Below are positions 1,465-26,794 of a DNA stretch of 32,984 nucleotides, one piece after another (the stretch's first letter is position 1; each line of letters starts with the position of its first letter). This stretch comes from Candidatus Poseidoniales archaeon. GTDB lineage: Archaea; Thermoplasmatota; Poseidoniia; Poseidoniales; Thalassarchaeaceae. Made by a program: the position numbers and the translations under genes. Under the pieces are notes generated by a model. That model searched no databases. It had not been told where the DNA came from and saw nothing but the letters and a program-made list of their open reading frames with translations. The DNA lies in assembly GCA_028821815.1 (NCBI GenBank), contig JAPKEY010000001.1, positions 1 to 32,984 on the forward strand. Direction: 5' to 3'.

Positions 1465-1467
1465 ACC

Positions 1468-1869
1468 TCATGAAAACGATATTCCTGATTGGCCGCCCAT
1501 GCTTGCGACAAAGATGCGTGCAGGAGATGTGAAACCTGTACCACTCAACTGTATATGCAATGTTTCCCCTGGGAAGAGAATGGTGCTCTGGTTATGGTAG
1601 TCACTCGCTCTAATTGGCAAAGCGCCATCAATGCTGAGCCATGTTTGATCGAAAGATATGGTTTCATCTCCTGCATTGGTCATATTGAGGTGAATTACGC
1701 CATTTGATTCTGAGGCGTTGATGAGGCGAATCTCAGGTTCGTCTGTTGCACCCCCTACGACTTCTGAAGCTGAAAGAGCACTGTTACTAAGTGACAATGA
1801 GGCAAGAGCGAATATGCCAAGAAGTGCTGTTCCGACAATCAAAGCTGAGATGCTTACTGAGCCGCCCAC
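1468..1869 (-). CDS. arlF: Archaellum accessory protein ArlF (FlaF-like)
   Basis: 133 aa. N-terminal hydrophobic helix SISALIVGTALLGIFALASLSL followed by a beta-rich domain. GTG start 4 nt after the upstream stop. Position is between the archaellin region and arlG. Confidence 0.65.
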   Translation of the reverse strand: MGGSVSISALIVGTALLGIFALASLSLSNSALSASEVVGGATDEPEIRLINASESNGVIHLNMTNAGDETISFDQTWLSIDGALPIRASDYHNQSTILFPGETLHIQLSGTGFTSPARIFVASMGGQSGISFS

Positions 1870-1872
1870 ATC

Positions 1873-2697
1873 TCAGGCCCCCTCTCCAGAGGTGGCCCGG
1901 GAATTTCGCCATGCTTCTACCATCGAGCCGAACATCAGTAGTGTACGATGTGGTAAGTGTTCTGAGCCATCGTTATTGATTGCAGGATTGGCTAAACCAA
2001 TGATGGCAGTTAACTCAGTAGATTCATCCTTAGAAATCATCCCACTGGCCTTGGCTTTATCGATAAAAATCCCAGCAGATTCTGCCGAAAGATGATCGAG
2101 TAATAATGCTGAAATCTCACTCACTGTCACCGGGGGGCCTTGAGAACGAGAATCTGGGCGCCGATTTAGGAATGGATTGAGGTCTGCAACACTCCCTTCA
2201 TACAAATCAAGTAAATTGACAGTCTCACCTTCAGGTGATTCTGAATCTTCTACATCTTCTGAAGTTTCGCCTTCCTGTTCTCCTTCGTCACCATCACCAT
2301 CGACAGTCACTAGGGTGTCCGTTGACAATACGTGGGGAAAATTGTCTGATACATTCAACTGTGTTAGGCGGGCATCCATGATGCCCATGGTCGCTTCAAT
2401 ACGATCAAATCGGTCATCCAATCTTTGCTCAATCGCTTTCGTGTCTATTGTTGAAGAATCTGAGGGCGTAGGTTTACCCTCAACAATTGCGGGTTCAAAT
2501 CCGCTGGCGCCAACGCGAGCCCTGGCGGGGGATGGGGCGAGTGTCCAAGCATCCTCTTCGATCGGGATTGACTCCTCTGGGACCATCACAGCCTCAACGG
2601 CTTGCTCGGATAATGATTCTAAACGCTTCACTGAGGCTTCATCGACGTCGTCGTATTCGTCGTCCGAACTGAACCCGAGAAATGACAGTAATCCCAT
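1873..2697 (-). CDS. Highly acidic hypothetical protein occupying the ArlC/D/E slot of the archaellum operon
   Basis: About 274 aa from ATG 2697 (the track's 2703 start is a TTG). It is rich in D/E (SSDDEYDDVDE, GDGDEGEQEGETSEDVEDSESPEGE) and has no TM segment or signal peptide. I could not recognise the conserved FlaD/E C-terminal signature by eye, so only the position supports an ArlCDE-like role. Confidence 0.6.
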   Translation of the reverse strand: MGLLSFLGFSSDDEYDDVDEASVKRLESLSEQAVEAVMVPEESIPIEEDAWTLAPSPARARVGASGFEPAIVEGKPTPSDSSTIDTKAIEQRLDDRFDRIEATMGIMDARLTQLNVSDNFPHVLSTDTLVTVDGDGDEGEQEGETSEDVEDSESPEGETVNLLDLYEGSVADLNPFLNRRPDSRSQGPPVTVSEISALLLDHLSAESAGIFIDKAKASGMISKDESTELTAIIGLANPAINNDGSEHLPHRTLLMFGSMVEAWRNSRATSGEGA

Positions 2698-2716
2698 TGA
2701 CAAAACCCCATGATGT

Positions 2717-2741
2717 CCTCTGCCCCCTACGGGGGCAGAGG
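2717..2741 (-). terminator. Perfect 11-bp stem / 3-nt loop hairpin between arlB and the accessory genes (putative attenuator/terminator)
   Basis: The plus strand reads CCTCTGCCCCC-TAC-GGGGGCAGAGG. It lies in the 57-nt gap between the arlB stop (2755) and the next ATG (2697). On the transcribed strand it is followed by ...GGGGTTTTG. Confidence 0.6.
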
Positions 2742-2754
2742 GGTTATCATAGTA

Positions 2755-3333
2755 TCATACGATGGTATCGCCATTGCCTACACTGTTGTAGTGTAGTTGG
2801 GCGTAAGTTTCGCCACCACCGTCGATGATTACACGGAGTTCTTGTTCATCACCAACACCGGGTTGACAGTTTGTCGAGGTGTCAATTGGAACCAGGAATG
2901 TTTCACCGGCCTCGACTGACGAACCGGCTACAAGGAGATTTCCTGACAAGTCTGTTGCAACACCGTCAAAGTCAGCTGTATTGACCTCGGCTGTACCTGC
3001 ACCACCATCACAAACAATGAACCAATCCATGTTGTCCAATAAGGTGGTATCTGAACCGGCACTGAGTTGAACGATCAGTGTGATTTCATCTGCTGCATTT
3101 CCGGCTGCGTTATCGTCACTAACATACGCGCCAACCAGTTGAATTTTTCCACTGATTTCATCACGTGTATCATCACCGGTTGCTTCAGCTCTCTGTTGAA
3201 GTTCTTCGGCTGTCTTGATGATGATTGTTGATGCTACTGCTGCGACCAAAATCAATGCAATGAAGATAATCATTGCACCGATGCCGATGGCACCGCTCTC
3301 ATTCTCGTTTAGGTATCGGTTATCTCGGGACAT
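2755..3333 (-). CDS. arlB: Archaellin (major archaellum filament protein, FlaB/ArlB)
   Basis: 192 aa. Class III (type IV pilin-like) signal peptide and hydrophobic helix: MSRDNRYLNENESG|AIGIGAMIIFIALILVAAVASTIIIKTAEELQQRAE, which is the canonical archaellin N-terminus. It is the first gene of the arl operon. Confidence 0.9.
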   Translation of the reverse strand: MSRDNRYLNENESGAIGIGAMIIFIALILVAAVASTIIIKTAEELQQRAEATGDDTRDEISGKIQLVGAYVSDDNAAGNAADEITLIVQLSAGSDTTLLDNMDWFIVCDGGAGTAEVNTADFDGVATDLSGNLLVAGSSVEAGETFLVPIDTSTNCQPGVGDEQELRVIIDGGGETYAQLHYNSVGNGDTIV

Positions 3334-3344: not shown

Positions 3345-3400
3345 CCTGTGGTTTATTTTTAGTCGAGAAGGTATTTTATTGTACTCCATGTTTATACTCA
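3345..3400 (-). promoter_or_regulatory. Putative arlB promoter region (AT-rich TATA-like boxes)
   Basis: The 80-nt gap upstream of arlB has three AT-rich boxes on the minus strand: TAAAAATAAAC (3351-3361), CAATAAAATAC (3371-3381) and GTATAAAC (3390-3397). The proximal box is about 23-26 nt from the ATG, which fits a leaderless or very short-leader mRNA. No experimental support. Confidence 0.35.
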
Positions 3401-3413: not shown

Positions 3414-4277
3414 TTATTTGGCCAAATCAAGGTAAATAGTGACAAATTCGACCTGGTTTGGCTCAAGTGTTCTGATGAATGGCCATGAATTGGTTTTCCA
3501 CCCTGGTGGGATCCATGGCGTCACCAAAACATCCGTCATTGTTTCTGCAGTTTTATTCTCTACGCGGCAATCGATTGTGAGTCCTTGCTGAGTCAAATTG
3601 TAACCCGATTGGATTGATAGACGTTCTTGCAAACTTCCCGGGGCGCCTACCTCTCGAATGGCAGCCATGGCTGATGGTGTAATGTTGAAGAGAAGGTCGC
3701 ATGATTCTCCGGGATTGAGGGCTATAATTGCCAGCGATGGGGGGGATGATCGCCAATTCGGGGGAACAGGGGCTTTGACGTTGAATCCAGGGAGTAAGCC
3801 TGAACTTGTGTTCTCTACCCTGACCAGGAGTTGTCCATTGTCAGAACCGATGTCCCAACGGGCTTCAACACCCATCCAAAATTCATAGAAAATAAATGGG
3901 TTCAGCGCGGCACTGTTAATGAGTAAATGTTCTACCAGCCTTTCCAATTGCAGAGATGATTCATCGAAAGCACCTCGCAAAATGAGAGTTTCAGCTGTCT
4001 TCATTGTCAGCAACACATCAACAAGTTCGTTTTCAGTTGTTGATCTCTCTCTGATAATAGTGTGCAACATGCCGATTGAACGATGCATTCGGCCAACTTG
4101 AATCTTAAGTTCGTCAATGTCTTGGCGTGCTTGACGAATGCTTCTACGGGCATCTCTTGCATGTTTGTCTGTTACTGATTCCTGAATCAAGCGAATATGT
4201 TCGTCAAGAATTAAATTGAGGCGTGTGACTTGAGCCCGATAGGAGCTTTGAGTTGAAATTGTAGTTAATTCAGACAT
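3414..4277 (-). CDS. Hypothetical protein: N-terminal coiled coil plus two CARDB/NEW3-like beta-sandwich modules, no signal peptide
   Basis: 287 aa. Its ATG (4277) overlaps the stop of the upstream 1567-aa gene by 8 nt. The N-terminal ~120 aa are heptad-rich and charged. The C-terminal half contains VENTSSGLLPGFNVKAPVPPNWRSS and VENKTAETMTDVLVTPWIPPGWKTNS, the same h-x-N ... P-x-G-W motif that repeats in the neighbouring giant protein. Confidence 0.8.
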   Translation of the reverse strand: MSELTTISTQSSYRAQVTRLNLILDEHIRLIQESVTDKHARDARRSIRQARQDIDELKIQVGRMHRSIGMLHTIIRERSTTENELVDVLLTMKTAETLILRGAFDESSLQLERLVEHLLINSAALNPFIFYEFWMGVEARWDIGSDNGQLLVRVENTSSGLLPGFNVKAPVPPNWRSSPPSLAIIALNPGESCDLLFNITPSAMAAIREVGAPGSLQERLSIQSGYNLTQQGLTIDCRVENKTAETMTDVLVTPWIPPGWKTNSWPFIRTLEPNQVEFVTIYLDLAK

Positions 4278-7200
4278 TGGAATCTACCTCTACGCTTACG
4301 TCGTGTGCCTCGCCCCATCTCTGTCCAATCGTAATCCTGCGCAAATCTGCTGATGGGTTGCCCAATTGAATGAGCAATTCTTGGGATTCGATTTCCATCG
4401 CTGCCAGCTGATTGAAAATAAGGAGCCAGATATTTCTCGTTCGAAGAGTCATGTACACGACCAGAAGGATCCCTATAGTTGCATACAAGAGAATGGAACT
4501 GATATTCGCTAGTGACCATGAAATATCGTTTGGCATCACGATTGCAACAATAATGAAGCCCAACGGGGCGAAAGCCAATTTCATTGCGAGTTGCTTTAGA
4601 ACTCGATCCATCTCAACTTCATGATCCTCAAAGATTGAGTCGGACCCCCGTTGCATATTTTGCCGATCAGAAAGAATGGCGGGGATCTCAAACGCAGATG
4701 ACCGTGATGTAATGAAAACGACCCACAACAATGCTGTAGCTGCCAACGAGAAATTCACGTATGCGCCGAGATTGTATTGTGTGGCCAAACCCAACAATGC
4801 TGTTCCCGAATACGCACATAACATGAGGGCTCTTTCATCTTCAGAGGCTCTACGTAACAGGCGACTGGACTGTGTCACTAAAACAAGAGTGATGGGGATG
4901 AGGAGGAGGAGGGGTAGTGACCATGATTGGACGTCGAACGATACGGCCTTGACGTCGTTTGATTCGTCATCGCCTGCCATTTCTGGCGATTCTATGGTAA
5001 CTGTACACGGCACCGTCTCAGCGGAAACCCACCAGTTGAGGGCGTCGGATTTGATTTGCCATTCTAATTCCCTTGTCTCAAATGGTTGCATGCTGATGAT
5101 TGCTTGTGTTGCTTCATCTTGAATCGTGATCCCGGGTTCACAATCCAATGTCGCAACGATTCCAAGAGCCGTTCCTGCATTTCCGGTGTTTGTTATTTCA
5201 GCAACCAGTGTTCCTGATTTTGATTCAATAAATTCTGAACCCTCTTCAATCTTAATTGCAACAACGGAAGGGTCAGCCCATGCATCCACTTGGAAGTCAA
5301 ATATTACCTGGGTGCTGGTAAATTCTTCTGGGTGTGTCAAATTGAAAATGAGGGTCCATCCATCCCCAGGGGGTATACTAGTTGCAGGAGGTAAAATTGC
5401 TCGGATTGTTATTGATTGTAATTGCATAGGAGTTGCGGGGAGTAGGGTAAATGGGCTATTGGAAAGGGAAGTAAATCCGCCCCCATAGTCTATTTCAAAT
5501 GACCAATTGACATCCCCTGAATACAATGTTTCATTGATATAGCGACTGGCATTTTCCAATTCTAATTCATAGGCGATCGCGCGTAAATCTGCTGTTTGTC
5601 CAACGGCTGGAACGTGCATCCAATCCAAATCGATATCTTGTGTTTGCTCCCCTCCTAGGAGTTCTATGGAGTCATCTGAATGCATTCTGCTGATGCGTAA
5701 CACTGTTGCAAGAAGTGCATCTCCAGAGTGATTATCTTGGGGTGAAAATGTCAATCGCAATCCAGATTGCTCAAGATTGTAGTGATCTGATGCAATGCCT
5801 TCAACGCTAAAGGATACGGCGCGCTTGTCCCCACTAGAGAGTGTGATATTGGTGGCGTCGCAATCGGATAGATCCCATCGTGTTGGAGTATCTACTTCAC
5901 AATCTAAATCGAGAATGACATCTTGATTACCATCATTTGAGATTTCGATTTCAAATGTTCTCAATTCACCTGGCAGTAAATCAACGACGTCGGGGAAATC
6001 ATCTGATGAAAGGACGAAGATGGGTTCGACGTTGAATTGTATCGAGGATAGGCCCACTTGTATCGAGTCGCTGACATTGGTTGCCATTAGCATGAGATTG
6101 TGGATTGAACCCGGGTCAAGGTTCGCACCATTTGACATGGGTGGAACCGTGACATCGATGATTAGTGGCAAGACTTCAATGCCTTCACCGTCAATTGTCA
6201 TATTCAATGGTGTAACGGATGATTGCCAGCCTGTAGGGGGGAGTGTTGTGAAATTAACAAACTCCTCAAGATTGCCAACATTGGTCACATTAACTGGAAT
6301 ACTGAGGCTCATTCCTGGTACAACAGAATATTCGCTGGTATGTTCAAATTCAATCTGGTGATTGGCAATCATTTTCACATATACATCGATGCGATTAAGT
6401 TCGATCCCGTTGTGATACAATACCACTTGAGCGCTATGATTTTCATCGGCGCGTGCAAATTGCTCTGCGGTAACTTCGATTTGAACTATACTGACTTCGC
6501 CCGGTTGAATGTCGATGTCGGTGGCGGAAATTAATGTCAAGTTGATATCATCGAGTGATTCCTCGATTGATATCGTAAATGTCTGCAGAGAATTACCAGT
6601 ATTATTGGCTTCAAGGGCAATCGATGAGTTGCCGTTAACTGGAATTACTGCAACCGCATATTCTGGAGTGAGTGATGCTCCGATGACTTCCTCTACAAGG
6701 AAAGGAATCGATGCCACTGTCAGAATTTCTCCAGAGTCACTCATCACTGTGACATTTACTTCGAAGGGTGTGTCTGCCCGGGTGTTAGGGGGCGCTGTTA
6801 CACTGAGTGATGTGGTCACGTTGTCCCCTCCAACTGAAGGCCATGCATCTATGATTGAATGGAGATTGGAGATTGCTGTTGGAGATATGGTGGTAATCCA
6901 GCCTTCAGGCCCATCGGCACTCAATGTGAAATTTGTTTGGTGATTACCTGTATTGGAGATTGTGAGGGGGATGGTTGAAAGTATCTCGGGAGTTACAATC
7001 GTTGGAGGTGGGATTTCAACGTCAGTGAGGGTCAGTTCTGGGATCTCAAGTGTGATGCTAATGTTTGACTCAGGTGCCTGGATACCACTCAGTGCCCCAG
7101 ACAAGGTAAGGTTTGCAATCACATCGATCGAGAGGGTGCCTGCAAGGGGTAGTAAATCAGAAGGGCCGAGAATTGAAGCTACAAGTGATTTTGTTTCCCC

Positions 7201-8973
7201 AAGTTCCATACTGGTTTGACTTGGTGTGACTGAGCTATTCCATCGGAAAATCTCGTTTGGTCCATTTGACGGACTCGAAGATATGAAACTGTTCGGTCCA
7301 GAAGATAGTTGAATGTCTACGGATGTCGATATCCCAGAAATAAGATTGTGGCGTAATTCCATTTCTATGTCGACGAAGCGAGAAATGGGCCCGGTCAGCA
7401 ATTCGGATGGATCTACTGGAAATTCAGTTTGTTCAGCAAATAATTCCACCATGATTGTAGATTGGACCTCGAGTGTTGTATGTTGGACGTTGGGTCCACC
7501 ACCTAGTGGTGTCACCGAGGTCCAAAGGGTCAATTGATTGCCTTCTGCGAGTTTGGACGTGGGATCAAATGGTAGTGAAAGTGCTGGTGGTTGAACTATT
7601 GCATTGACGATAATTTCCTCACCGACGGTCATGTAAGGAGTAGTGGTTGGGTATGTCTCAACCGTCCACCCGGGCGCGGTTTGTGAAAAGCCAACGGCAA
7701 GGTTGAAAATTGCAGGGGATGTGCCGTTATTGCGTAAAGTATACTGGATTATTTCTTCTGTCCCAGGGATGATAGGTACAAACCAATTACTGTGATTCAA
7801 CTCACCCAATAACAAGTCGCCAGCCATTACTGCAGCTGAATCTGAAAGATTATATTCGCCCCCTTCACTTTCAATTTCGACCGTGATTAGATCGGATAGA
7901 GAACGATTCGTGCCCAGCGGAACTGTCACTGTGACAACAATGGTTGTTGAGGCTGATGCATTGACGATTTCGGTTTGGCCTGGATTGTTGGAAGTATCAG
8001 CCCAACCTTGGACGGAGGATACTGTGAAATTGTATCGATCGGGTGCTTCTCCAATGTTTTGAACCATGAATGACAGGGTCGTTGAAGACCCCGGGTCGAC
8101 TGCTCGATCGCTCGGTGCGATCAAGGTGGTTCGATAGGGGCTGAATGTGACTGTGCGCGGAGTAATGCTGACGGTAACTGATAAGAGTGGGGTTGTTGAA
8201 TTAAAGTATACTTCACCAGATAATGTGTAATCACCCGACAACCCCGCTGCATTGATGACAAGTGAGGCGAGTTCTACTGAGGGTGGGAATGCAATGCTGC
8301 CAGCCAAAAGTGAGGTTGGCATTCCTGTGAATGTGACGGGTGTTCCGCCCAAAATAGGTGTGAGTGTGATGGCTGGAGTCGCCTCTGTATCGATGTTTCC
8401 AGCATTTCGGACGCCAACTGAAACGACTTCGTTTTCTTGGGCTAGGCGCGCGCCGTCTGCAGGCAAGGTGTCCGAGTAGGTTTCACCTGCGTTTACCTCA
8501 TTCACATCAAAATTCTGAATGAGTTGGTTGTTGGATATATCAATGTCTGAAAGCATTGCTGCGTATGCATTGATTTCTTGTCCAATGCCCAGTGTTGCTG
8601 TCCAAGTGAATACATATTGAGACGCCGCTCCAGGTGAAAGTGAGACTGACTGGCTGCCGATTGAAACCGAACCCATTCCATCGTTGCTATCAATGAACAC
8701 AGACACGGCACCCACCCCAGGGAGTAAGCCGTCGTTCGCAACAGTGATTCGTGCCTCTTGAGATCCTGGGGTGAGAACGTCTGTTACGCATAGATTGCAA
8801 TAATATGAGGCGCCGATCCATTCAATCTGAGTTATGTTGATATCGGGATTTGCGTCTCTTGCAACTGTGAATTCAACATCCATTACTGAATGATTATTCA
8901 ATGGGGTGGAGGCGAATGGGGCGAAACAATGTAGCACCAGTATCGCAAAAACGAGAATAGTTTTGTTACGCAT
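4270..8973 (-). CDS. Giant cell-surface protein: signal peptide, about ten or more CARDB/NEW3-like beta-sandwich repeats, polytopic (~5 TM) C-terminal membrane domain
   Basis: 1567 aa. N-terminal signal peptide MRNKTILVFAILVLHCFAPFAS. A GGAGGG sits 8 nt upstream of the ATG. Recurrent motifs: VRNAGNIDT, VQNIGEAPDRYNFTV, LRNNGTSPAIFNLAV, ISNTGNHQTNFTLSADGPEGW, ANNTGNSLQTFTI, VTNVGNLEEFVNFTTLPPTGW, ISNDGNQDVILDL, ITNTGNAGTALGI. The last ~217 aa (nt 4273-4923) contain about five hydrophobic helices separated by R/K-rich loops. Confidence 0.9.
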   Translation of the reverse strand: MRNKTILVFAILVLHCFAPFASTPLNNHSVMDVEFTVARDANPDINITQIEWIGASYYCNLCVTDVLTPGSQEARITVANDGLLPGVGAVSVFIDSNDGMGSVSIGSQSVSLSPGAASQYVFTWTATLGIGQEINAYAAMLSDIDISNNQLIQNFDVNEVNAGETYSDTLPADGARLAQENEVVSVGVRNAGNIDTEATPAITLTPILGGTPVTFTGMPTSLLAGSIAFPPSVELASLVINAAGLSGDYTLSGEVYFNSTTPLLSVTVSITPRTVTFSPYRTTLIAPSDRAVDPGSSTTLSFMVQNIGEAPDRYNFTVSSVQGWADTSNNPGQTEIVNASASTTIVVTVTVPLGTNRSLSDLITVEIESEGGEYNLSDSAAVMAGDLLLGELNHSNWFVPIIPGTEEIIQYTLRNNGTSPAIFNLAVGFSQTAPGWTVETYPTTTPYMTVGEEIIVNAIVQPPALSLPFDPTSKLAEGNQLTLWTSVTPLGGGPNVQHTTLEVQSTIMVELFAEQTEFPVDPSELLTGPISRFVDIEMELRHNLISGISTSVDIQLSSGPNSFISSSPSNGPNEIFRWNSSVTPSQTSMELGETKSLVASILGPSDLLPLAGTLSIDVIANLTLSGALSGIQAPESNISITLEIPELTLTDVEIPPPTIVTPEILSTIPLTISNTGNHQTNFTLSADGPEGWITTISPTAISNLHSIIDAWPSVGGDNVTTSLSVTAPPNTRADTPFEVNVTVMSDSGEILTVASIPFLVEEVIGASLTPEYAVAVIPVNGNSSIALEANNTGNSLQTFTISIEESLDDINLTLISATDIDIQPGEVSIVQIEVTAEQFARADENHSAQVVLYHNGIELNRIDVYVKMIANHQIEFEHTSEYSVVPGMSLSIPVNVTNVGNLEEFVNFTTLPPTGWQSSVTPLNMTIDGEGIEVLPLIIDVTVPPMSNGANLDPGSIHNLMLMATNVSDSIQVGLSSIQFNVEPIFVLSSDDFPDVVDLLPGELRTFEIEISNDGNQDVILDLDCEVDTPTRWDLSDCDATNITLSSGDKRAVSFSVEGIASDHYNLEQSGLRLTFSPQDNHSGDALLATVLRISRMHSDDSIELLGGEQTQDIDLDWMHVPAVGQTADLRAIAYELELENASRYINETLYSGDVNWSFEIDYGGGFTSLSNSPFTLLPATPMQLQSITIRAILPPATSIPPGDGWTLIFNLTHPEEFTSTQVIFDFQVDAWADPSVVAIKIEEGSEFIESKSGTLVAEITNTGNAGTALGIVATLDCEPGITIQDEATQAIISMQPFETRELEWQIKSDALNWWVSAETVPCTVTIESPEMAGDDESNDVKAVSFDVQSWSLPLLLLIPITLVLVTQSSRLLRRASEDERALMLCAYSGTALLGLATQYNLGAYVNFSLAATALLWVVFITSRSSAFEIPAILSDRQNMQRGSDSIFEDHEVEMDRVLKQLAMKLAFAPLGFIIVAIVMPNDISWSLANISSILLYATIGILLVVYMTLRTRNIWLLIFNQLAAMEIESQELLIQLGNPSADLRRITIGQRWGEAHDVSVEVDSNV

Positions 8974-9008
8974 TTGGGTCCCTCCGAATTGGATTCAAAT
9001 CAGTGATT

Positions 9009-9025
9009 CTACACCTACGGTGTAG
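9009..9025 (-). terminator. 7-bp stem / TAC-triloop hairpin between the 1050-aa and 1567-aa genes
   Basis: The plus strand reads CTACACC-TAC-GGTGTAG. It lies in the 96-nt gap, 45 nt after the upstream stop and 36 nt before the next ATG. No oligo-T tract follows, so it may be a processing or attenuation site rather than a terminator. Confidence 0.4.
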
Positions 9026-9069
9026 TGGTCGGACTATGAACGTCTGCATTGAAGTGATATTTGCCAAAA

Positions 9070-12000
9070 TCACGCCACCTCCACCAATGTGATGAATTGC
9101 AATTTGTTTGCAGTTGACATCTGGGCCGAGAATTCAGATCTATCTCCTTTGTTTAAGATTTGAATGCGACATTCGTAAAGATTTGTTCTCTTGATCAATT
9201 CATGTTCTTTGTAGAAATGCACGTACACGTAATACGTTCCTTTTGGTGTTTTTTTCTCTGGCCAATATGCATTCTCGACGGGTACTCGTGTGTTGCCTTT
9301 TTGATTCATTTCAACATCGAGTATTCCGCCATCTTGTGATTTTCGGTTGCGAGGATGGATGATTTCACCACTCGGAGAAACGACGAGCAAATTGAAATCG
9401 TTCTTGTTGTCCCACATCAAGGATACTTGGAGATCTCCGGAATTTGCTTCTGCTTGTTGGAGGCGCTCTTCGAAGTCTTCCTTGAGCCATTCGTCGTCAC
9501 CCAGTGGTTGGAGACCACCTCGTTTGTATGCCTCGTTGAGAGCTGTATGCAATCGAACCTGTTTATCCATCTCAATTTCAGAACTATTCGCAGTATTTTG
9601 CATGACCTTACGGCGAGCGATTCGAAGTTGCTGGAGTGTTTTTAATTGACGATCGTCGGTGTCTTCGAATACAATAGATGCGAGTGTTGTCAAATCTTCT
9701 GCTTCATTAATCATGGAACGATATTTCTCAAACAGTTCTTGATATTCTATTTGCTCTTGTTTCTTTATCCCGGCCTCGATTAATTTACGTCGTTTGAGAA
9801 GGGCTTTCTCAATATATTTCACAACGTCGCTTGATATGTGTGAATAGCGAATTGCTGCCAATTCATCAAGATCTCTTGACGCTTCAATTTCAGCCACGAT
9901 TTTGTTATACTGCTCCTCTTGTTCTGCAATGTATTGCTTTCGTTTGACCTCTTCAAGTTCAGATTCTCGTTTCTCCATCAATCTCTTCAGCATCACCGTA
10001 TGAACGGTTGAAACCTTGTCATTAATTGTGGGTAATTCTTCAACCGTTTGAGCGGACACCACGTCTGCTCTTTGTAGGCGATAGAGTTCAGATTCAGATT
10101 CCAGCCGTTTGTTCATTGTTTCTGCATCTGGAACTTCAATCGATGCGATGAGTTTGAGTTTGTCTCCAAAACTAGTCTTACCTGAATGCTGAAAATAATC
10201 TGCACCAACTCGGCTGCGTAAGGTGTAGATGGTTGGATCTGATTTTCGCAATCTTTGGTGGCGTTTTCGGTGCCAAACAAACACGTTGTAAATACCAGGT
10301 GTGGGTGTGGTGCTCTGAGGCCAAACAATATTCTCTAAGGCGGATTTCATTTCGGGTTGAGAATTCATTTCGAGGTCGAGATGGCCGCCACAAGATGATT
10401 TGCGCTTGCCCCTATGGATTATTTCTCCGTTGGAGGTGCGTACAATCAAATCCAAATCATTCATGTTGTCCCACAATAAACTGAACCGAAGATGGCCGTC
10501 GCCTGCGTCCAGTGTCTTGATGCGGGTTCTGAATGCGGCTTCTGGTTCAAAATCAAATTCATCGGGTATTGGCGGTTTCTTAGATTTCTTTTCCGCTTTT
10601 TCCACGTATGTGGTAATCATTTCATCTTCAACAAGAATTTCTCTAACTTCTTCTTTGATTTCGATTAAGCGTGCTTCCTGTTCCTCGTTGATTTCTTCAA
10701 TCTCGATTTTGTCAATCTCGGCAGAAGATTTCGCAGTTTCAAGACGACCCCGTAGGAGTTGATACTGCTTGGCTTGCGCTTCTTCGACTCTTTGTCTTTC
10801 AATTTCTTCAAGATAATCTAACCGGGTAAGACGTAACTCTTCCAATTCTTGTTGCTGAGTTTCTGTGATGTTGATAAAGTCTACAGCAAGGAGTTCCTCG
10901 GTTTCTTCAATTCTGGGAATTGAATCCAAATATCGTGTATATTGTTCGGTAAATTTTCGTTGGCGGGCCAGTTCCACCAATTCCCCTCGTCTTGTTATTT
11001 TGATTTCTGTTAGCAATTCAAATTGTTCATCCGTCACACCCTGAATCCTGATGGCGTCCAGTTCAAGCACATATTCACAATCAAGAATCTTAGAATTTAG
11101 TTCATCACATACCAAGTTCTCCCTGGTGCGGGCGGAGAGTTGCTTCAATTCTTCTTGTTGGGTTGGGTTCACACCTGTAATGCGAATCCTATCAAGAGCT
11201 GATGATGATTTTGCTGATTCTATTCCCAATCGTATCTCTTCAGCGCGGGCGTCTTCCCTCTCACTCTGATCTTTCGCATCTAACGCAAGTATGCGCTTGT
11301 TCCGCCGTTCGTCTAATTCGGCAAGTAAATCGGCCGGTAAATCTTCGAATTCCATGTTATGCAATTCTTCTTGATCTTCGCAATCATGAATCAAATCTGA
11401 AAAATGGCGATAGAGTTCTGCTTCGAATTGAAGACGCTCTTTTTCACTCAATCGTGAAAGATAAAATTCGTAATGGGCTTTGAGGCGCGTTGAGCCTTCT
11501 TCATTCAATCCTGAGAAATCTAACGATTCGAGATAGTTGACTGTTTGTGCAGAGCGGATCTCCCGATACAATTCTTCTTCGCGTCTTAACTGTTCAAGTT
11601 GGGATGATAGTTCATCAGTTTCAGCATCAATGAGGGCTTTAGTTGCTTTTTCTTGGCTTTCATGTAACCCCAATTCCCTTTTTCGGATTTCTTGAATGGC
11701 GTCTTCAAATGTAAGTTGATACATTCGTTCATATAATTCCAGTAAAGCCGCCTGACGTAATTCCAATTCAACTAGTGTTGCGCCCTCAAGTGGGGTTTCA
11801 ACAAGGTCTTGGTTGACTTCGATATTGTATTCCTCACTCAACCCTTGGATTAATTCGATGATACCTTTGCATTCATCCCTTTTTTCAGTGGTACGATCAA
11901 GAATTGCGTGTCTTTCGATATTGGTCTCTTGTAAATCGGTGATTTCCTGTTTCATTGGCCCGCGTTTATCGGTTTGATGTTGGATTTGACGGGATGGGAA

Positions 12001-12222
12001 TGGGGCCATTTCTGGAGAATATTCAACTCGGGTACCGACTAGTGATTGTGACAATGATGCTCGCGACGGTGGAAGGATGTCTTCGACTTCGATATCCTCC
12101 ATTTTTAGTGCACCCAGTAGCGATTCGGGTTTCCTTCTTCCTTGACTCAAATTGGAGGCTGCTTGCCAAACCATAACCAAAACGATGGAGGTGACTATTG
12201 CATATCCGATCATAGTATTCAT
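9070..12222 (-). CDS. Giant N-terminally TM-anchored coiled-coil protein with two copies of an unassigned ~120-aa beta-rich domain
   Basis: 1050 aa. A single N-terminal TM (IGYAIVTSIVLVMVWQAA) is followed by RRK, so positive-inside predicts the bulk is cytoplasmic. Long E/K/R/Q-rich helical regions carry at least eight copies of a ~40-50-aa motif. The domain copies are at aa ~574-697 (nt 10132-10503) and aa ~928-1050 (nt 9073-9441). Confidence 0.9.
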   Translation of the reverse strand: MNTMIGYAIVTSIVLVMVWQAASNLSQGRRKPESLLGALKMEDIEVEDILPPSRASLSQSLVGTRVEYSPEMAPFPSRQIQHQTDKRGPMKQEITDLQETNIERHAILDRTTEKRDECKGIIELIQGLSEEYNIEVNQDLVETPLEGATLVELELRQAALLELYERMYQLTFEDAIQEIRKRELGLHESQEKATKALIDAETDELSSQLEQLRREEELYREIRSAQTVNYLESLDFSGLNEEGSTRLKAHYEFYLSRLSEKERLQFEAELYRHFSDLIHDCEDQEELHNMEFEDLPADLLAELDERRNKRILALDAKDQSEREDARAEEIRLGIESAKSSSALDRIRITGVNPTQQEELKQLSARTRENLVCDELNSKILDCEYVLELDAIRIQGVTDEQFELLTEIKITRRGELVELARQRKFTEQYTRYLDSIPRIEETEELLAVDFINITETQQQELEELRLTRLDYLEEIERQRVEEAQAKQYQLLRGRLETAKSSAEIDKIEIEEINEEQEARLIEIKEEVREILVEDEMITTYVEKAEKKSKKPPIPDEFDFEPEAAFRTRIKTLDAGDGHLRFSLLWDNMNDLDLIVRTSNGEIIHRGKRKSSCGGHLDLEMNSQPEMKSALENIVWPQSTTPTPGIYNVFVWHRKRHQRLRKSDPTIYTLRSRVGADYFQHSGKTSFGDKLKLIASIEVPDAETMNKRLESESELYRLQRADVVSAQTVEELPTINDKVSTVHTVMLKRLMEKRESELEEVKRKQYIAEQEEQYNKIVAEIEASRDLDELAAIRYSHISSDVVKYIEKALLKRRKLIEAGIKKQEQIEYQELFEKYRSMINEAEDLTTLASIVFEDTDDRQLKTLQQLRIARRKVMQNTANSSEIEMDKQVRLHTALNEAYKRGGLQPLGDDEWLKEDFEERLQQAEANSGDLQVSLMWDNKNDFNLLVVSPSGEIIHPRNRKSQDGGILDVEMNQKGNTRVPVENAYWPEKKTPKGTYYVYVHFYKEHELIKRTNLYECRIQILNKGDRSEFSAQMSTANKLQFITLVEVA

Positions 12223-12226
12223 CGAA

Positions 12227-12664
12227 TCACCCCTCTGGTTGTTCCTCTTCTTCGGCTCCTGATGAAATCGGTATTGATTGAATATGGATGGGGCGCCCTT
12301 GTTTGTTGTAGCGAGCGATTAATGAGGAAAGAAGTGCGTCATGGGAAGTTTCAGAAATTCCTAATTTTCTACGCTCATCCCAAAGAAGGATCTGTTCGGT
12401 GCGTGTTAGGATTCCGTCGTCAAGGTATACTTCGATGAGGCGGCGATATGTGTCGCGATCTGAAATTGCGTAAACGAGTTGAGTGTTATCGATTGATAGG
12501 GCCCGAAGTTGGATTTGGTTACCGAGTATAATCGCTTCATTGTGGGTGATTTTGCGATTGTCATATCCAACCTGTACTTCGTTTGCAATCGTTTGGAGGA
12601 ATTCAATTGTTTTACCGCGATTAATGCGCCGTTGAAATTTGCGAGATTTTCTAGAAAGGCGCAT
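12227..12664 (-). CDS. Small basic/helical protein, possibly TerB/DjlA-N-like
   Basis: 145 aa. Basic N-terminus (RLSRKSRKFQRRINRGK). Two helix-hairpin motifs, NRKITHNEAIILGNQIQLRALSI and DDGILTRTEQILLWDERRKLGIS, resemble the D-G-x-h-x-x-x-E ... L-G-h-S signature of TerB-like domains. Acidic tail EEEEQPEG. There are 12 nt after the upstream stop and 4 nt before the next ATG. The homology call is by eye only. Confidence 0.75.
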   Translation of the reverse strand: MRLSRKSRKFQRRINRGKTIEFLQTIANEVQVGYDNRKITHNEAIILGNQIQLRALSIDNTQLVYAISDRDTYRRLIEVYLDDGILTRTEQILLWDERRKLGISETSHDALLSSLIARYNKQGRPIHIQSIPISSGAEEEEQPEG

Positions 12665-12676
12665 CTAATTCCCCCC

Positions 12677-13519
12677 CTACTCAACTGTGAATACACACAC
12701 CAAACGTGGCGGTTCTTCATTTGTGATTTCGCCCCGATACTCTTTGGGGCCGTTGCCGTCATCTACCAGAACCCTGTAAGGCGTTAGGTCTTCTTTGGCG
12801 TGGTGCTCAAAATGTTCTATTATGACCTTGTATTCCCCTTTTGGAGCAACTCCTGCAGCCCAGAAAATGTTCTCAACGGGTTGTTCGCTTGTGGGGGATT
12901 CATTCATGTCGATATCTAGTTGCCCGCCGCATGATGACAATTTATTATCAAATGATATTCGTTCGCCGGATGGGCAAACCACACTGAGATCAAGATCGTT
13001 TTTATTGTCCCAAATGAGGCTGACTTGGACTTGCCCAGATTTGGCTCCTTCTCTTGCGAGCCGGTCATGGAAATCTGAAAGGTCGGGATTCGACACTTCC
13101 TCCCCCGTTTCGACGTTGAGTTTGTCTGAATCGGGTTCTTTCCGAGGATTTGTATCCCATTCGGCGCCAATTTCAGCAAGAAGCGATTCGGAAGTATCGA
13201 GCAAATCTTCAGGGTTTGGCAAGTCCTCACCTTCATCGATTTCAGCTTCGATTGGGATTTCTGTGTTCTCAGTTTCAGGTGCTTCATCGGGTTGGACGGT
13301 TGCAGAGGGGGTGATGACTGGTGGTTTTGACAATCGGGCCATGTCTTCTTCCAAGGCAAATTGGTTGGGTCGGGGTTCAGAAACTTCGATCGGGGTAGCC
13401 CTAACGTTGCCCAGCCGAGTTGTGTGAGCCGGGTTCTCTTCGCCGGTGAGAATTCTGGAAATGCCGAATACGAACATGGCGAACAGGATAAAAAAAAGAA
13501 CATATGCTGCCCAAGGCAT
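12677..13519 (-). CDS. N-terminally TM-anchored protein with an acidic linker and one copy of the unassigned ~120-aa domain
   Basis: 280 aa. TM helix AAYVLFFILFAMFVFGI, then an acidic low-complexity linker (PDEAPETENTEIPIEAEIDEGEDLPNPEDLLD). The C-terminal domain (aa 161-280, nt 12680-13039) is clearly homologous to the two domains in the 1050-aa protein. Confidence 0.85.
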   Translation of the reverse strand: MPWAAYVLFFILFAMFVFGISRILTGEENPAHTTRLGNVRATPIEVSEPRPNQFALEEDMARLSKPPVITPSATVQPDEAPETENTEIPIEAEIDEGEDLPNPEDLLDTSESLLAEIGAEWDTNPRKEPDSDKLNVETGEEVSNPDLSDFHDRLAREGAKSGQVQVSLIWDNKNDLDLSVVCPSGERISFDNKLSSCGGQLDIDMNESPTSEQPVENIFWAAGVAPKGEYKVIIEHFEHHAKEDLTPYRVLVDDGNGPKEYRGEITNEEPPRLVCVFTVE

Positions 13520-13538
13520 ATCTCTACGAGATATGCCT
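13514..13538 (-). terminator. 11-bp stem / TAC-triloop hairpin that contains the start codon of the 280-aa gene
   Basis: The plus strand reads AGGCATATCTC-TAC-GAGATATGCCT. In the minus-strand RNA the 3-prime arm GAGATATGCCT contains the ATG (13519-13517). A T8 run follows about 20 nt downstream on the transcribed strand (plus-strand AAAAAAAA around 13490-13497). The hairpin begins about 40 nt after the stop of the RHH gene. Confidence 0.55.
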
Positions 13539-13578
13539 AAGTTTATGATTCATTGCAACCATGGTTGTCAGAGGCGAG

Positions 13579-14535
13579 TCAATCTAGGATGTGAATCGCA
13601 GCAGGAGTAATGGTGTATTCAACCCGATTCGCTGTGAATATTCGCTCGATGAAACCCAGGGCCTGCATCCTCCCCAGTACCCCGCTTCTCATGTGGGGGA
13701 TAACCGATTCACTCCAGTTTGTTTTGGTGCCTGGACCATATCTTCGATGAATGCGGGAAAGCAATGAGGAGGGGGTGTTTGAACCGATGTGGATGCCGTC
13801 GATGATGTGACGCATATACGCCCACTCCCCACCCATATTGTTTCTCACCTGCGATACGATCAATGCCCGCTCCGTCGGTGATAATGAGGGGCCCCCCTCA
13901 AGGGAATCGTCGATGATGGGGTTTGGTTCTCTAACAAATCTTTTTCCTGGATCGGTAAATTGTACTCTGCCGGAATCGTCGACACTAATCAATCCGAAAT
14001 CATACAATGCCCCAGATGGTTCGGTTTCACCGGCTCGGGCCCTCCGGATCATGTAGTGATTCAGGAAACGGTTTGTTGCTGCGCGTTCTCCGTTAGGAAA
14101 TGAAGAGTGGGTTCTCGATCCTCTTTCACGGCCCTGATGTTCGTCAAATTGTTTCAACAGCGCTCGGAGGGGAGCCACACTCGCCCTGATTGCTGAACGG
14201 AAATCGTGTATAGTCGGCCCGGAACCTTGTTCATCCAGTAGGGACCAAAGCATTCTGCACCCATACTTCAATGGCAACATACGGTTGATGTGTCCAGATA
14301 CTGCGCCACCCTCGAGTGGGTGACCGGCGGTGGTTGAATTCAGTCTGCTTTCGCCTAAATTGATTAATTTCAAGGGGTCTAGTATGGAATGGTCTGCTGC
14401 TACGGTATTATCCTCCTCCTGTAGGTGATTTTCAAGGAGTAATTGGCAATATTGGCTAATTGAAAGGTCCAGTTCGTTTGCACCGCTCATTAACCGTTCA
14501 ACGAGCTGTGAAGGGAGCGTGACTGTGGCCTCCAT
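13579..14535 (-). CDS. Putative transcription regulator: N-terminal ribbon-helix-helix (CopG/Arc-like) plus a large uncharacterised domain with a winged-helix-like C-terminus
   Basis: 318 aa. The N-terminus ATVTLPSQLVERLMSGANELDLSISQYCQLLLENHL has an RHH beta-strand/helix/helix pattern. The C-terminal end (MRSGVLGRMQALGFIERIFTANRVEYTITPAA) looks wHTH-like. It is the first gene of the block and has a perfect palindrome just upstream. Confidence 0.7.
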   Translation of the reverse strand: MEATVTLPSQLVERLMSGANELDLSISQYCQLLLENHLQEEDNTVAADHSILDPLKLINLGESRLNSTTAGHPLEGGAVSGHINRMLPLKYGCRMLWSLLDEQGSGPTIHDFRSAIRASVAPLRALLKQFDEHQGRERGSRTHSSFPNGERAATNRFLNHYMIRRARAGETEPSGALYDFGLISVDDSGRVQFTDPGKRFVREPNPIIDDSLEGGPSLSPTERALIVSQVRNNMGGEWAYMRHIIDGIHIGSNTPSSLLSRIHRRYGPGTKTNWSESVIPHMRSGVLGRMQALGFIERIFTANRVEYTITPAAIHILD

Positions 14536-15544: not shown

Positions 15545-15565
15545 CTTGCCTCTCTCAAACGGGGG

Positions 15566-15581
15566 CACGCAGTACTGCATG
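15566..15581. promoter_or_regulatory. Palindrome in the purN / DUF454 divergent intergenic region
   Basis: CACGCAGTACTGCATG, with a perfect 10-bp core GCAGTACTGC at 15569-15578. It lies between the divergent starts at 15544 and 15637. Confidence 0.25.
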
Positions 15582-15636
15582 AAGAGGTTGGCCCTTGCAT
15601 GCGAAGGGTGATAGGTAGCATGTCGAGGGGGGGAAC

Positions 15637-21685: not shown

Positions 21686-21702
21686 GATGCCCTACGGGCA
21701 TC
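21686..21702 (-). terminator. 7-bp stem / TAC-triloop hairpin at the stop codon of the ATPase-KH gene
   Basis: The plus strand reads GATGCCC-TAC-GGGCATC. It overlaps the TGA (21701-21703) by 2 nt and lies 40 nt upstream of the thermosome ATG. Confidence 0.4.
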
Positions 21703-24505: not shown

Positions 24506-24605
24506 GGACGCGCGACCTCGGTCTTGTTCAAGACGGTGTCGACTGTGGGTCGAATGTCTGCGAATATGGGGCGATTTGATGAGGTCGTGACCCGCCGCAG
24601 TTGGC

Positions 24606-25862: not shown

Positions 25863-25872
25863 AGGTGATTTG

Positions 25873-26790: not shown

Positions 26791-26794
26791 TAGG

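What the first reader, a model, noticed from the sequence alone, without database searches (positions are those of the whole stretch)
3414..14535. Uncharacterised six-gene membrane / coiled-coil block joined to the upstream side of the archaellum operon
All six genes are co-directional with arlB and very tightly packed. The order is RHH regulator, TM+domain-X protein (12-nt gap), TerB-like protein (4-nt gap), 1050-aa TM-anchored coiled-coil giant with two domain-X copies, a 96-nt gap with a hairpin, the 1567-aa surface giant, the 287-aa partner (8-nt overlap), then an 80-nt promoter-like gap and arlB. None of the five structural genes has a family assignment I can make with confidence, and together they take up about 10 kb. 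The predicted topology pairs a very large extracellular array that has a multi-pass anchor and a cytoplasmic tail with three proteins predicted to face the cytoplasm. Two of those three are membrane-tethered and one is a ~1000-residue coiled coil. Euryarchaeal archaellar motors sit on a large cytoplasmic polar cap whose protein composition is, as far as I know, unresolved. A membrane-tethered giant coiled-coil scaffold encoded next to arl genes is a plausible candidate for that or for another polar organising or surface-anchoring structure. This functional idea is speculation; the gene architecture is directly visible.
Basis: partly seen in the sequence, partly recalled or inferred. Interest (0 to 1): 0.85.

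Follow-up and report, generated by a model that had tools for sequence, protein, structure and literature searches.

The report
Conserved accessory genes beside Poseidoniales archaellum
Three uncharacterised genes – a giant glycosylated surface protein with a conserved membrane anchor and two small partner proteins with no membrane segment – sit directly in front of the archaellin gene in every marine Group II archaeon sampled, so they are probably an unrecognised, lineage-specific part of, or partner to, the swimming/attachment machine of the ocean's most abundant planktonic archaea.

Summary
The six-gene block is real and laid out as described. It is not one unit. G3 (145 aa), G5 (1567 aa) and G6 (287 aa) form a core. 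In 80 arlB-anchored metagenome loci, G6 lay directly upstream of arlB in 44/44 informative loci and G5 in 19/19. G3 was present in 13/18. The same order held in 20 species genomes and nine more contigs, covering both Poseidoniales families. G1 and G2 are variable neighbours, often divergently transcribed. The 1050-aa G4 occurs only in the window's clade, inserted between G3 and G5.

G5 has a signal peptide, about 1320 aa of Ig-like domains rich in N-glycosylation sites, and a conserved 4–5-helix membrane module with a tail. G6 is a coiled coil plus a NEW3-type beta-sandwich. G3 is a six-helix protein whose TerB likeness is only transitive. "Domain X" is a remote DUF2135 (YfaP-like) beta-sandwich.

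Best reading: a Poseidoniales-specific membrane-spanning accessory complex coupled to the archaellum, perhaps an envelope anchor for the stator or a co-expressed adhesin. The polar-cap idea has no direct support. Tully 2019 drew conserved unannotated genes in this operon; whether they are these was not checked.

The parts
13579..14535 (-). G1, 318 aa. Putative DNA-binding regulator with an RHH-like N-terminus and a winged-helix-like C-terminus. It is a variable neighbour, not part of the core.
   Evidence: ORF. The match to the ORF56 RHH protein is weak (E 0.5). There were no Pfam, NCBIfam or PDB profile hits. Homologues of 350-361 aa at 24-28% identity sit next to G2-like genes, divergent from G3-G5-G6, in L021, L111, L112 and L113. 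Present in 5 of 18 informative arlB-anchored loci.
12677..13519 (-). G2, 280 aa. N-terminal TM helix (residues 7-25), acidic linker, then C-terminal domain X (about residues 148-280; DNA 12680-13090). Domain X is a DUF2135-like beta-sandwich.
   Evidence: AF2 model of domain X: pLDDT 96.6, one helix plus nine strands. hhalign against E. coli YfaP (DUF2135): Prob 96.9%, E 1.8e-10. No convincing PDB fold match. Low sequon density fits a cytoplasmic location.
12227..12664 (-). G3, 145 aa. Basic N-terminus followed by a six-helix domain carrying the motif YRRLIEVYLDDGILTRTEQILLWDERRKLGIS. Core gene, best conserved of the set.
   Evidence: AF2 pLDDT 88.3. No Foldseek match in PDB (best E 1.6). Exhaustive search gave 61 hits, of which about 37 are family members or fragments. 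The remote hits are TerB/DUF533/Tic110-type hairpin repeats.
9070..12222 (-). G4, 1050 aa. N-terminal TM helix, about 540 aa of helical repeats, domain X copy 1 (DNA 10123-10560), about 215 aa of helical repeats, domain X copy 2 (DNA 9073-9510). Clade-specific insertion between G3 and G5.
   Evidence: Found in the genome loci L001-L020 that reach that far upstream (partial in L018 and L020) and in L033, L034 and L037. Absent from all other lineages, where G3 and G5 overlap.
9009..9025 (-). Hairpin CTACACC-GTA-GGTGTAG inside the 96-nt G4-G5 gap.
   Evidence: Read directly from the sequence. Function not tested.
4270..8973 (-). G5, 1567 aa. Signal peptide (residues 1-23), about 1320-aa ectodomain of Ig-like/NEW3/FixG_C-type domains, and a C-terminal module of 4-5 TM helices with a conserved loop and tail (residues about 1348-1567; DNA 4273-4932). 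Core gene.
   Evidence: Pfam NPCBM_assoc 2.4e-14 and FixG_C 1.3e-10. TM pattern and length (1557-1719 aa) are conserved in 16 orthologues. Conserved C-terminal motifs: SWSP, EFQxIHxDYxRAxxG, YGxLYxxL...LGDP. Sequons 29 observed vs 15.3 expected (P 1e-3); 413 vs 264 over 16 orthologues.
3414..4277 (-). G6, 287 aa. No signal peptide or TM. N-terminal helical/coiled-coil half and C-terminal NEW3-type beta-sandwich region. Start overlaps the G5 stop by 8 nt. Core gene.
   Evidence: NPCBM_assoc hit in 10/10 diverse orthologues (best 1.1e-5). PDB GH20 C-terminal domain E 8e-5. A 4- or 8-nt overlap with G5 is seen in every lineage whose called gene coordinates I examined.
3372..3383 (-). Conserved A/T-rich TATA-like box about 40 nt upstream of the arlB ATG, in the 80-nt G6-arlB gap. 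A GGA(A/G)-type ribosome-binding motif follows.
   Evidence: Alignment of 12 orthologous intergenic regions. The box stays conserved while its surroundings diverge. Promoter function is inferred.
288..3333 (-). Archaellum genes: arlB 3333..2755, p276 2703..1873 (possible ArlC/D/E analogue), arlF 1869..1468, arlG 1464..976, arlH 983..288.
   Evidence: FlaC_arch is a weak hit in 3/8 p276 orthologues. arlI (T2SSE) follows in related loci.

Best explanation
G3, G5 and G6 are a Poseidoniales-specific accessory gene set functionally coupled to the archaellum. They most likely assemble into one membrane-spanning complex.

G5 is exported. It displays about 1320 aa of glycosylated Ig-like domains on the cell surface and is held in the membrane by a conserved 4-5-helix module with a conserved loop and tail, both predicted to face the cytoplasm. 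G6 (coiled coil plus NEW3 beta-sandwich) and G3 (basic tail plus TerB-like helical hairpins) have no TM segment or signal peptide. I infer they bind that cytoplasmic face, because the three genes overlap start-to-stop in most lineages.

Membrane-tethered DUF2135-like proteins (G2, and in this clade the enlarged G4) and a DNA-binding protein (G1) are optional add-ons.

The specific mechanism I think most likely (about 0.3 on its own): the complex is an envelope-side scaffold or collar next to the motor. It would give the ArlF/ArlG stator something fixed to hold.

Shown: gene anatomy, strict synteny, domain content, sequon bias. Inferred: complex formation, location at the archaellum base, and the anchoring role.
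For: Linkage measured from the arl side. In 80 metagenome loci found with an ArlB alignment (33-96% identity to the window), a G6 homologue lies directly 5' of arlB in 44/44 loci with more than 1.1 kb upstream. A near-full-length G5 homologue lies 5' of G6 in 19/19 loci with more than 6.5 kb. G3 is present in 13/18 and a domain-X protein in 13/18, and every locus has at least one of the two.

Linkage measured from the block side. All 20 GTDB species genomes found with G6 carry a colinear arrangement over whatever part of G1..arlH each locus reaches. Every additional context looked up via a G2-like or G3-like protein is arl-linked.

Breadth. The trio occurs in Thalassarchaeaceae (window, L021) and in a lineage whose ArlH cluster includes 'Candidatus Poseidonia sp.', i.e. 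Poseidoniaceae/MGIIa.

Coupling. G3/G5 and G5/G6 overlap by 1-17 nt and by 4 or 8 nt in the lineages without G4 whose gene calls I examined.

G5 looks structural, not like a variable adhesin. Its length stays within 1557-1719 aa at about 30% identity, and its C-terminal membrane module carries motifs conserved in 16 orthologues from across the sampled lineages.

Topology. G5 ectodomain sequons are about 2-fold enriched, at a density like ArlF and ArlG. G2, G3, G4, ArlH and PurH have few or none.

Flanks differ between clades (purN here, AhpC/flavin reductase elsewhere) while G3-G5-G6-arlB stays constant.

Context from the literature. How stators are anchored in S-layer-less Thermoplasmatales is an open question (PMC12448462).
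Against: There are no expression, localisation or interaction data. A conserved TATA-like box in the G6-arlB gap suggests arlB has its own promoter, so the trio may be a separate transcript.

I do not know whether Poseidoniales have an S-layer, so the 'missing anchor' rationale is borrowed from Thermoplasmatales.

G6 carries a domain type (NEW3) that is usually extracellular, and a mild sequon excess (37 vs 22). This partly reflects one conserved motif, so its compartment is uncertain.

G3 was not detected in one clade (L092/096/098/100/103).

I could not score presence or absence in arl-negative Poseidoniales genomes.

Both scans were pattern-based and reach only Poseidoniales-like sequences.
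Confidence: 0.6

Rival explanations
1. Co-expressed adhesin. G5 is a giant surface adhesin produced together with archaella for particle attachment. G6 and G3 would be its cytoplasmic anchoring, export or signalling partners. The link to arl genes would then be regulatory, not structural.
For: G5 is a long string of Ig-like/CARDB/NEW3-type domains, typical of adhesins. It is the fastest-evolving gene of the locus: 29-38% identity where ArlH keeps 54-61%. Rinke et al. argue that the operon serves adhesion, because chemotaxis genes are absent and flaJ is enriched in particle fractions (PMC6461757). arlB appears to have its own promoter.
Against: Adhesins usually vary in repeat number. G5 length is nearly constant, and its membrane module is conserved across the sampled lineages. 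A simple adhesin would not be expected to stay fixed at one position, start-stop coupled to two proteins that lack any TM segment or signal peptide, in every locus sampled.
Confidence: 0.25
2. The cytoplasm-facing proteins (G4, G2, G3, G6) build a polar cap or another polar organising platform under the archaellar motors.
For: G2 and G4 are membrane-tethered and predicted to face the cytoplasm. G4 is about 1000 aa of helical repeats. The composition of the euryarchaeal polar cap is not identified in the 2022 review I read (PMC8978795). Domain-X proteins recur beside the locus in three clades with three different architectures.
Against: G4 exists only in the window's clade, and G1/G2 are absent from many loci. 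The G3 family is tiny, and its few named members are Thermoplasmatota. Homologues in cap-bearing Thermococcales or Halobacteria were not searched for specifically; none stood out among the G3 hits I examined. No polar cap was seen in the one Thermoplasmatales archaellum imaged in the paper I read (PMC12448462). Bacterial domain-X proteins are predicted to carry the domain outside the cell, so the domain is not tied to a cytoplasmic scaffold role.
Confidence: 0.08
3. Unrelated neighbour. G5 is a general cell-envelope protein (for example an S-layer-like coat), and the genes are kept next to arl by inheritance alone, without functional coupling.
For: There is a weak similarity to a putative S-layer protein model (NCBIfam PACE-CTERM-PROT, E 0.049, far below cut-off). 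All evidence for coupling is genomic.
Against: The adjacency survives divergence down to about 29% (G5) and 33% (arlB) identity and changes in both flanks. No copy was found outside an arl locus in any sampled context.
Confidence: 0.07

Closest known systems
Lineage-specific archaellum accessory proteins (ArlX in Crenarchaeota; ArlC/D/E in Euryarchaeota)
   Same: They are encoded inside or next to the arl cluster and restricted to particular lineages. They are thought to form scaffolds around the ArlH/I/J core (PMC8978795). The G3-G5-G6 trio has the same genomic signature of strict linkage.
   Different: No sequence similarity was detected to ArlX, ArlC, ArlD or ArlE models. The trio lies upstream of arlB, not between arlB and arlF. 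It includes a 1,600-aa extracellular protein, which has no counterpart among known Arl proteins. A separate gene (p276) occupies the ArlC/D/E position and weakly resembles FlaC.
ArlF/ArlG stator with the S-layer as anchor
   Same: Same proposed functional logic: something fixed in the envelope must hold the stator (PMC12448462). The G5 ectodomain has the same sequon density as ArlF and ArlG.
   Different: G5 is not an S-layer protein by any test run here (no PDB or profile match). The anchoring role is inferred, not shown.
DUF2135 / E. coli YfaP (Pfam PF09906 by my recollection; the accession was not returned by any tool)
   Same: Domain X shares the motif W-x4-D-L-D-L-H-V-x2-P-x-G-E ... G-x-L-D-x-D ... 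G-x-Y-x-V with YfaP. hhalign gives Prob 96.9%, E 1.8e-10 over 84 columns.
   Different: Pfam hmmscan does not place G2 or G4 in DUF2135 at E <= 0.1. YfaP is a secreted protein of the alpha-2-macroglobulin operon. Here the domain sits on an N-terminal TM tether and is predicted to be cytoplasmic. The function of DUF2135 is itself unknown.
TerB-like helical hairpin domains (TerB PF05099, DUF533, Tic110)
   Same: G3 carries the D-G-x-[IL]-T-x2-E-x3-L-x6-L-G-[IL]-S type hairpin. Its profile reaches Thermoplasmatota HTH proteins built of such repeats (E 1e-8 to 1e-4). Those proteins hit Pfam TerB above cut-off.
   Different: There is no direct Pfam hit for 22 family members even at a permissive E-value limit of 10, above which HMMER's filters drop most weak matches anyway. 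hhalign against DjlA gives Prob 1.6%. The confident AF2 model has no Foldseek match among PDB structures; no TerB or DjlA entry appeared in the 50 matches listed.
NEW3/NPCBM-associated and CARDB-type Ig-like surface proteins of archaea
   Same: The G5 ectodomain and the G6 C-terminal half match these beta-sandwich families.
   Different: G6 has no signal peptide or TM segment. G5 adds a conserved polytopic C-terminal module that these domain families do not define.

Membership tests
Archaellum (arl) gene cluster | Archaellin with class III signal peptide and Arch_flagellin domain | tested here: met
   arlB 3333..2755: PF01917 E 2.7e-25, 90 bits against a 29.5 cut-off.
Archaellum (arl) gene cluster | ArlF, ArlG, ArlH (and ArlI/J) downstream in conserved order | tested here: met
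   ArlF 6e-8 and ArlG 1.9e-18 against the NCBIfam models, both below the equivalog cut-offs. The KaiC-like ATPase (arlH) and T2SSE (arlI) are in order in related loci. arlI and arlJ lie outside the window.
Archaellum (arl) gene cluster | G3/G5/G6 being known Arl components (ArlC/D/E/X) | tested here: not met
   No Pfam or NCBIfam Arl model hits G1-G6 at E <= 0.1. They are additional genes, not known Arl proteins.
TerB (PF05099) for G3 | Profile match to the TerB family | tested here: not met
   0 of 22 family members hit TerB with the E-value limit set to 10, although HMMER's filters drop most matches above about 0.1.
TerB (PF05099) for G3 | TerB-type fold | tested here: not met
   The AF2 model (pLDDT 88) has no PDB match with E < 1, and no TerB or DjlA structure is among the 50 matches listed.
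TerB (PF05099) for G3 | Remote or transitive homology of the hairpin motif | tested here: inconclusive
   The G3 profile finds repeat proteins (P0330 at 7e-6, P0318 at 1.8e-8) that hit TerB at 3e-8 and 1e-6. hhalign of G3 against P0330 gives Prob 81%; against DjlA, Prob 1.6%.
DUF2135 (YfaP-like) for domain X | Pfam family match | tested here: not met
   No DUF2135 hit for G2 or G4 at E <= 0.1.
DUF2135 (YfaP-like) for domain X | Profile-sequence homology to a bona fide member with the shared motif | tested here: met
   hhalign of A4 against E. coli YfaP: Prob 96.9%, E 1.8e-10, 33% identity over 84 columns.
NEW3 / NPCBM_assoc Ig-like domain | Pfam PF10633 match | tested here: met
   G5: 53.7 bits against a 24.4 cut-off, three stretches. 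G6: 24.3 bits against 24.4 (borderline), but 10/10 diverse orthologues hit.
Ribbon-helix-helix regulator (G1) | Significant match to an RHH family or structure | tested here: inconclusive
   Only E 0.5 to the pRN1 ORF56 RHH protein. The profile of four homologues finds nothing in PDB. The N-terminal pattern is compatible by eye.
Euryarchaeal polar cap | Cytoplasmic sheet under archaellar bundles seen by cryo-ET; protein composition not identified in the review read | not testable with these tools
   No sequence definition exists (PMC8978795). The restricted distribution of G3 and G4 argues against a general cap component.
Anti-phage defence systems | Match to PADLOC models | tested here: not met
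   0 hits for G1-G6.

The most novel reading that the evidence does not exclude
G5, G6 and G3, with DUF2135-type membrane proteins as variable add-ons, are structural parts of the Poseidoniales archaellum apparatus itself. They would form a dedicated transmembrane collar or anchor that fixes the ArlF/ArlG stator in the cell envelope. That would make them a new class of archaellum component. It would also answer, for one lineage, how archaella generate torque without a canonical S-layer anchor.
Probability: 0.3. Interest if true: 0.8.

Novelty: new variant of a known kind. Interest (0 to 1): 0.55.

Why it matters
[quoted passage not shown] Whether their archaella serve swimming or particle attachment is debated (PMC6461757, PMC6336850).

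A gene trio that accompanies arlB in every locus sampled, including a 1,600-aa glycoprotein with a conserved membrane module, is a concrete candidate for a missing piece of that machine. It also bears on an open question in archaeal motility: what holds the stator when no canonical S-layer is available (PMC12448462).

The three families, together with the DUF2135-like tethered proteins, can be turned into HMMs. These would improve annotation of 'hypothetical' genes in hundreds of marine MAGs and allow tests of co-occurrence with motility.

Tried and rejected
- **G1-G6 against Pfam, NCBIfam and PADLOC.** Only Ig-like domains in G5 and G6 came up. There were no defence, transport or Arl assignments.
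- **PDB sequence searches** with G1, G2 and G5 as single sequences and with profiles of G3, G6, p276 and G1. The only meaningful hit was a NEW3-like domain for G6.
- **Foldseek against PDB** for the G3 and domain X models. No convincing match. MmpS5 and DUF4425 at E about 1e-2 are generic beta-sandwich resemblances, so I rejected them.
- **Direct TerB test** via E. coli DjlA. Not significant.
- **Sigma-70 promoter and intrinsic terminator scan.** Counts were at or below shuffled expectation, and the models do not apply to archaea, so I disregarded it.
- **Self-BLAST of G4 for repeats.** It returned nothing. A BLOSUM diagonal scan did show repeats.
- **Block-wise identity of G5 to the window sequence.** This suggested uniform divergence of about 30%. 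Only a realignment of the C-terminal 270 aa revealed the conserved membrane-module motifs.
- **Bacterial contexts of domain X** (L024, L114, L115), looked up for a functional hint. All neighbours are unannotated.
- **Organism names for the distant loci.** Only one useful label came back ('Candidatus Poseidonia sp.').
- **Literature.** No paper in the library links DUF2135 to a function. One MGII metatranscriptome paper has no text on archaellum genes.

Full report
**Observation.** The window carries a run of minus-strand ORFs:
- G1 14535..13579 (318 aa)
- G2 13519..12677 (280 aa)
- G3 12664..12227 (145 aa)
- G4 12222..9070 (1050 aa)
- G5 8973..4270 (1567 aa)
- G6 4277..3414 (287 aa)
- then arlB 3333..2755, p276, arlF, arlG and arlH

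arlB is a clear archaellin (PF01917, E 2.7e-25). ArlF and ArlG match the NCBIfam models below their cut-offs. They are 12 nt, 4 nt, 96 nt with a 7-bp hairpin at 9025..9009, an 8-nt overlap, and 80 nt. Domain X occurs once in G2 and twice in G4, at 33-47% identity. A hydropathy scan gives an N-terminal TM helix in G2 and G4. It gives a signal peptide plus C-terminal TM helices in G5, and no TM in G1, G3 or G6.

**What the proteins are.**
- **G5** has NEW3/NPCBM_assoc, FixG_C and HYDIN-type Ig-like domains. In 16 orthologues its plan is constant: signal peptide, about 1320-aa ectodomain, four clearly hydrophobic helices (a fifth weaker one is needed for a cytoplasmic tail), and a 39-126-aa tail. 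Total length is 1557-1719 aa. The ectodomain is only about 30% identical between lineages. The C-terminal module keeps the motifs SWSP, EFQxIHxDYxRAxxG and YGxLYxxL...LGDP in all 16 aligned orthologues.
- **G6** is a helical/coiled-coil N-terminal half plus a NEW3-type beta-sandwich region. All 10 diverse orthologues hit the Pfam model, and PDB 9fyn matches at E 8e-5.
- **G3** folds confidently (pLDDT 88) into six helices with no PDB fold match. An exhaustive HMM search of 1.8 billion representatives gives only 61 hits. About 37 are the family or its fragments. The rest are hairpin-repeat proteins, several carrying HTH domains, and most of those scanned hit Pfam TerB, DUF533 or Tic110. hhalign of G3 against one of them gives Prob 81%, but only 1.6% against E. 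coli DjlA. 'TerB-like' is therefore transitive at best.
- **Domain X** folds as a helix plus a nine-stranded beta-sandwich (pLDDT 96.6) with no close solved structure. hhalign links it to E. coli YfaP (DUF2135) at Prob 96.9%, E 1.8e-10. The domain also occurs in bacterial N-in TM proteins, inside vWA proteins, and behind TM plus coiled-coil segments.
- **G4**'s helical parts are at least 8 degenerate 45-60-aa repeats, with diagonal scores of 47-58 against a shuffled maximum of 38.
- **G1** has an RHH-like N-terminus (E 0.5) and no other match.

**Comparative genomics.**
- A G6 alignment found 20 loci among GTDB species-representative genomes, labelled Thalassarchaeaceae, MGIIb or more broadly Poseidoniales/MGII. 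Each is colinear with the window over whatever part of G1-G2-G3-G4-G5-G6-arlB-p276-arlF-arlG-arlH it reaches.
- More distant relatives of G2 and G3 led to other lineages (L021-L023, L111, L112, L113). There, G3, G5 and G6 overlap start-to-stop and run into arlB...arlI. G2-like and G1-like genes are transcribed divergently, and G4 is absent.
- In L025-L028 only G3-G5-G6 precede arlB. The ArlH of L025 clusters at 90% identity or more with a protein labelled 'Candidatus Poseidonia sp.', so the trio also occurs in Poseidoniaceae/MGIIa.
- An independent scan anchored on ArlB returned 80 metagenome loci at 33-96% identity. G6 is directly upstream of arlB in 44/44 loci with enough sequence. G5 is upstream of G6 in 19/19. 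G3 is present in 13/18, a domain-X protein in 13/18, G4 in 3/18 and G1 in 5/18. Every locus has G3, a domain-X protein, or both.
- One clade replaces G3 with a divergent 413-aa TM protein carrying two domain X copies.
- Flanking genes differ between clades: purN here, AhpC/flavin reductase elsewhere.

The conserved unit is thus G5-G6, usually with G3. G1 and G2 are recurrent accessories. G4 is a clade-specific insertion built from a G2-type domain and helical repeats.

**Topology.** N-glycosylation sequons are about 2-fold enriched in the G5 ectodomain: 29 observed against 15.3 expected (P 1e-3), and 413 against 264 over 16 orthologues. The density matches ArlF and ArlG. G2, G3, G4, ArlH and PurH have few or none. 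Charge distribution around the TM helices of G2 and G4 places their C-terminal parts in the cytoplasm. The G6 excess (37 against 22) is partly due to one conserved motif, so its compartment is not settled.

**Transcription.** A TATA-like box about 40 nt upstream of the arlB ATG is conserved in 12 orthologous G6-arlB gaps while its surroundings diverge. arlB probably has its own promoter, so the trio may be a separate upstream transcript.

**How it most likely works.** Strict adjacency in both Poseidoniales families points to a functional link with the archaellum. So do the start-stop coupling of G3, G5 and G6, the near-constant length of G5 and its conserved membrane module.

I propose a membrane-spanning complex. 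G5 is outside and in the membrane, and G6 and G3 sit on its cytoplasmic face (inferred).

My preferred specific role is an envelope scaffold that helps fix the ArlF/ArlG stator. How stators are held in S-layer-less Thermoplasmatales is an open question (PMC12448462).

The main rival is a co-expressed adhesin. This fits the adhesion hypothesis of Rinke et al. (PMC6461757) and the fast evolution of the ectodomain.

The polar-cap idea is weak. G4 is clade-specific, and the G3 family is tiny, with its few named members in Thermoplasmatota. No cap was seen in the one Thermoplasmatales archaellum imaged in the paper I read.

**Novelty.** Tully et al. 2019 drew the 'putative MGII motility operon' with 'several orthologous proteins lacking annotations' (PMC6336850). 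I did not check whether those unannotated genes are G3, G5 and G6. Four things appear to be new, judged from the four MGII genomics papers I read:
- the definition of a core as opposed to accessories
- the anatomy of G5, G6 and G3
- the DUF2135 link for domain X
- the quantified linkage

I rate it a new variant of a known kind: a lineage-specific archaellum accessory set.

**Limits.** All functional statements are inference from sequence.

Noticed in passing
window 1873-2703 (-): p276 sits between arlB and arlF, at the ArlC/D/E position, and is present in every Poseidoniales locus sampled that reaches that far downstream of arlB. Three of 8 orthologues weakly hit FlaC_arch (E 0.076). The conserved C-terminal motif is LLDLYE..LNPFL...ALLLDxLSG...F. 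It may be a divergent ArlC/D/E fusion.
   Followed up: partly
L024 1-9423 and L114 1-9505: In two unrelated metagenome contigs of unknown, probably bacterial, origin, a TM plus domain-X (DUF2135-like) protein ends the same operon. The order is SSB, two GT1-type genes (the second carries a GT1 hit only in L114), then about eight unannotated genes. A 2723-aa protein lies on the opposite strand in L024. This is a conserved system of unknown function.
   Followed up: partly
proteins P0101, P0102, P0103: Domain X also occurs inserted inside vWA (PF00092) proteins that have no signal peptide. This is a third architecture for the DUF2135-like domain.
   Followed up: no
proteins P0318, P0325, P0327, P0330: These proteins combine AsnC-type or other N-terminal HTH domains with tandem 'YRRAL..AL.DG.IT..EE.IL..LR..L.IS' hairpin repeats that hit Pfam TerB, ENT or Tic110. 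P0330 is labelled Thermoplasmatota; the others carry no organism label. It is the same motif as in G3.
   Followed up: partly
L021 12160-18197; L027 2347-9888; L111 11938-18224; L113 1-6877: In the clades without purN next to the locus, a second conserved neighbourhood flanks the arl region: AhpC/Redoxin, flavin reductase, a 154-156-aa ORF, a 1158-1248-aa CARDB/PKD surface protein and a TBP gene.
   Followed up: no
L111 4671-9384: The G5 orthologue is split into 1327-aa and 210-aa ORFs. This could be a frameshift, a pseudogene or an assembly error.
   Followed up: no
L021 9956-10001 (also L112 9876-10001): The divergently transcribed G3-like and G2-like genes are separated by only about 44 nt in L021 (124 nt in L112). 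That is very little room for two archaeal promoters.
   Followed up: no
window 14930-15895 (-): The PurN-like ORF (Formyl_trans_N, residues 129-313) has a 128-aa N-terminal extension from a TTG start that matches no family. The real start is probably further downstream. That would lengthen the A/T-rich intergenic region upstream of G1.
   Followed up: no
window 23474-29020: A cluster of sugar-modifying genes lies about 9 kb from the block: GFO/IDH/MocA oxidoreductase, GT1 glycosyltransferase, APH-family kinase and a DegT/DnrJ aminotransferase. They might supply glycans for surface proteins such as G5 and ArlB.
   Followed up: no
window 21701-23047 (-): A 448-aa protein combines a T2SSE-type ATPase domain with a KH domain. 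It lies next to a thermosome subunit and is not part of the arl cluster.
   Followed up: no
L113 15470-15700: An extra 76-aa ORF is called between G6 and arlB in one lineage. It is basic and has no homologue in the other loci.
   Followed up: no
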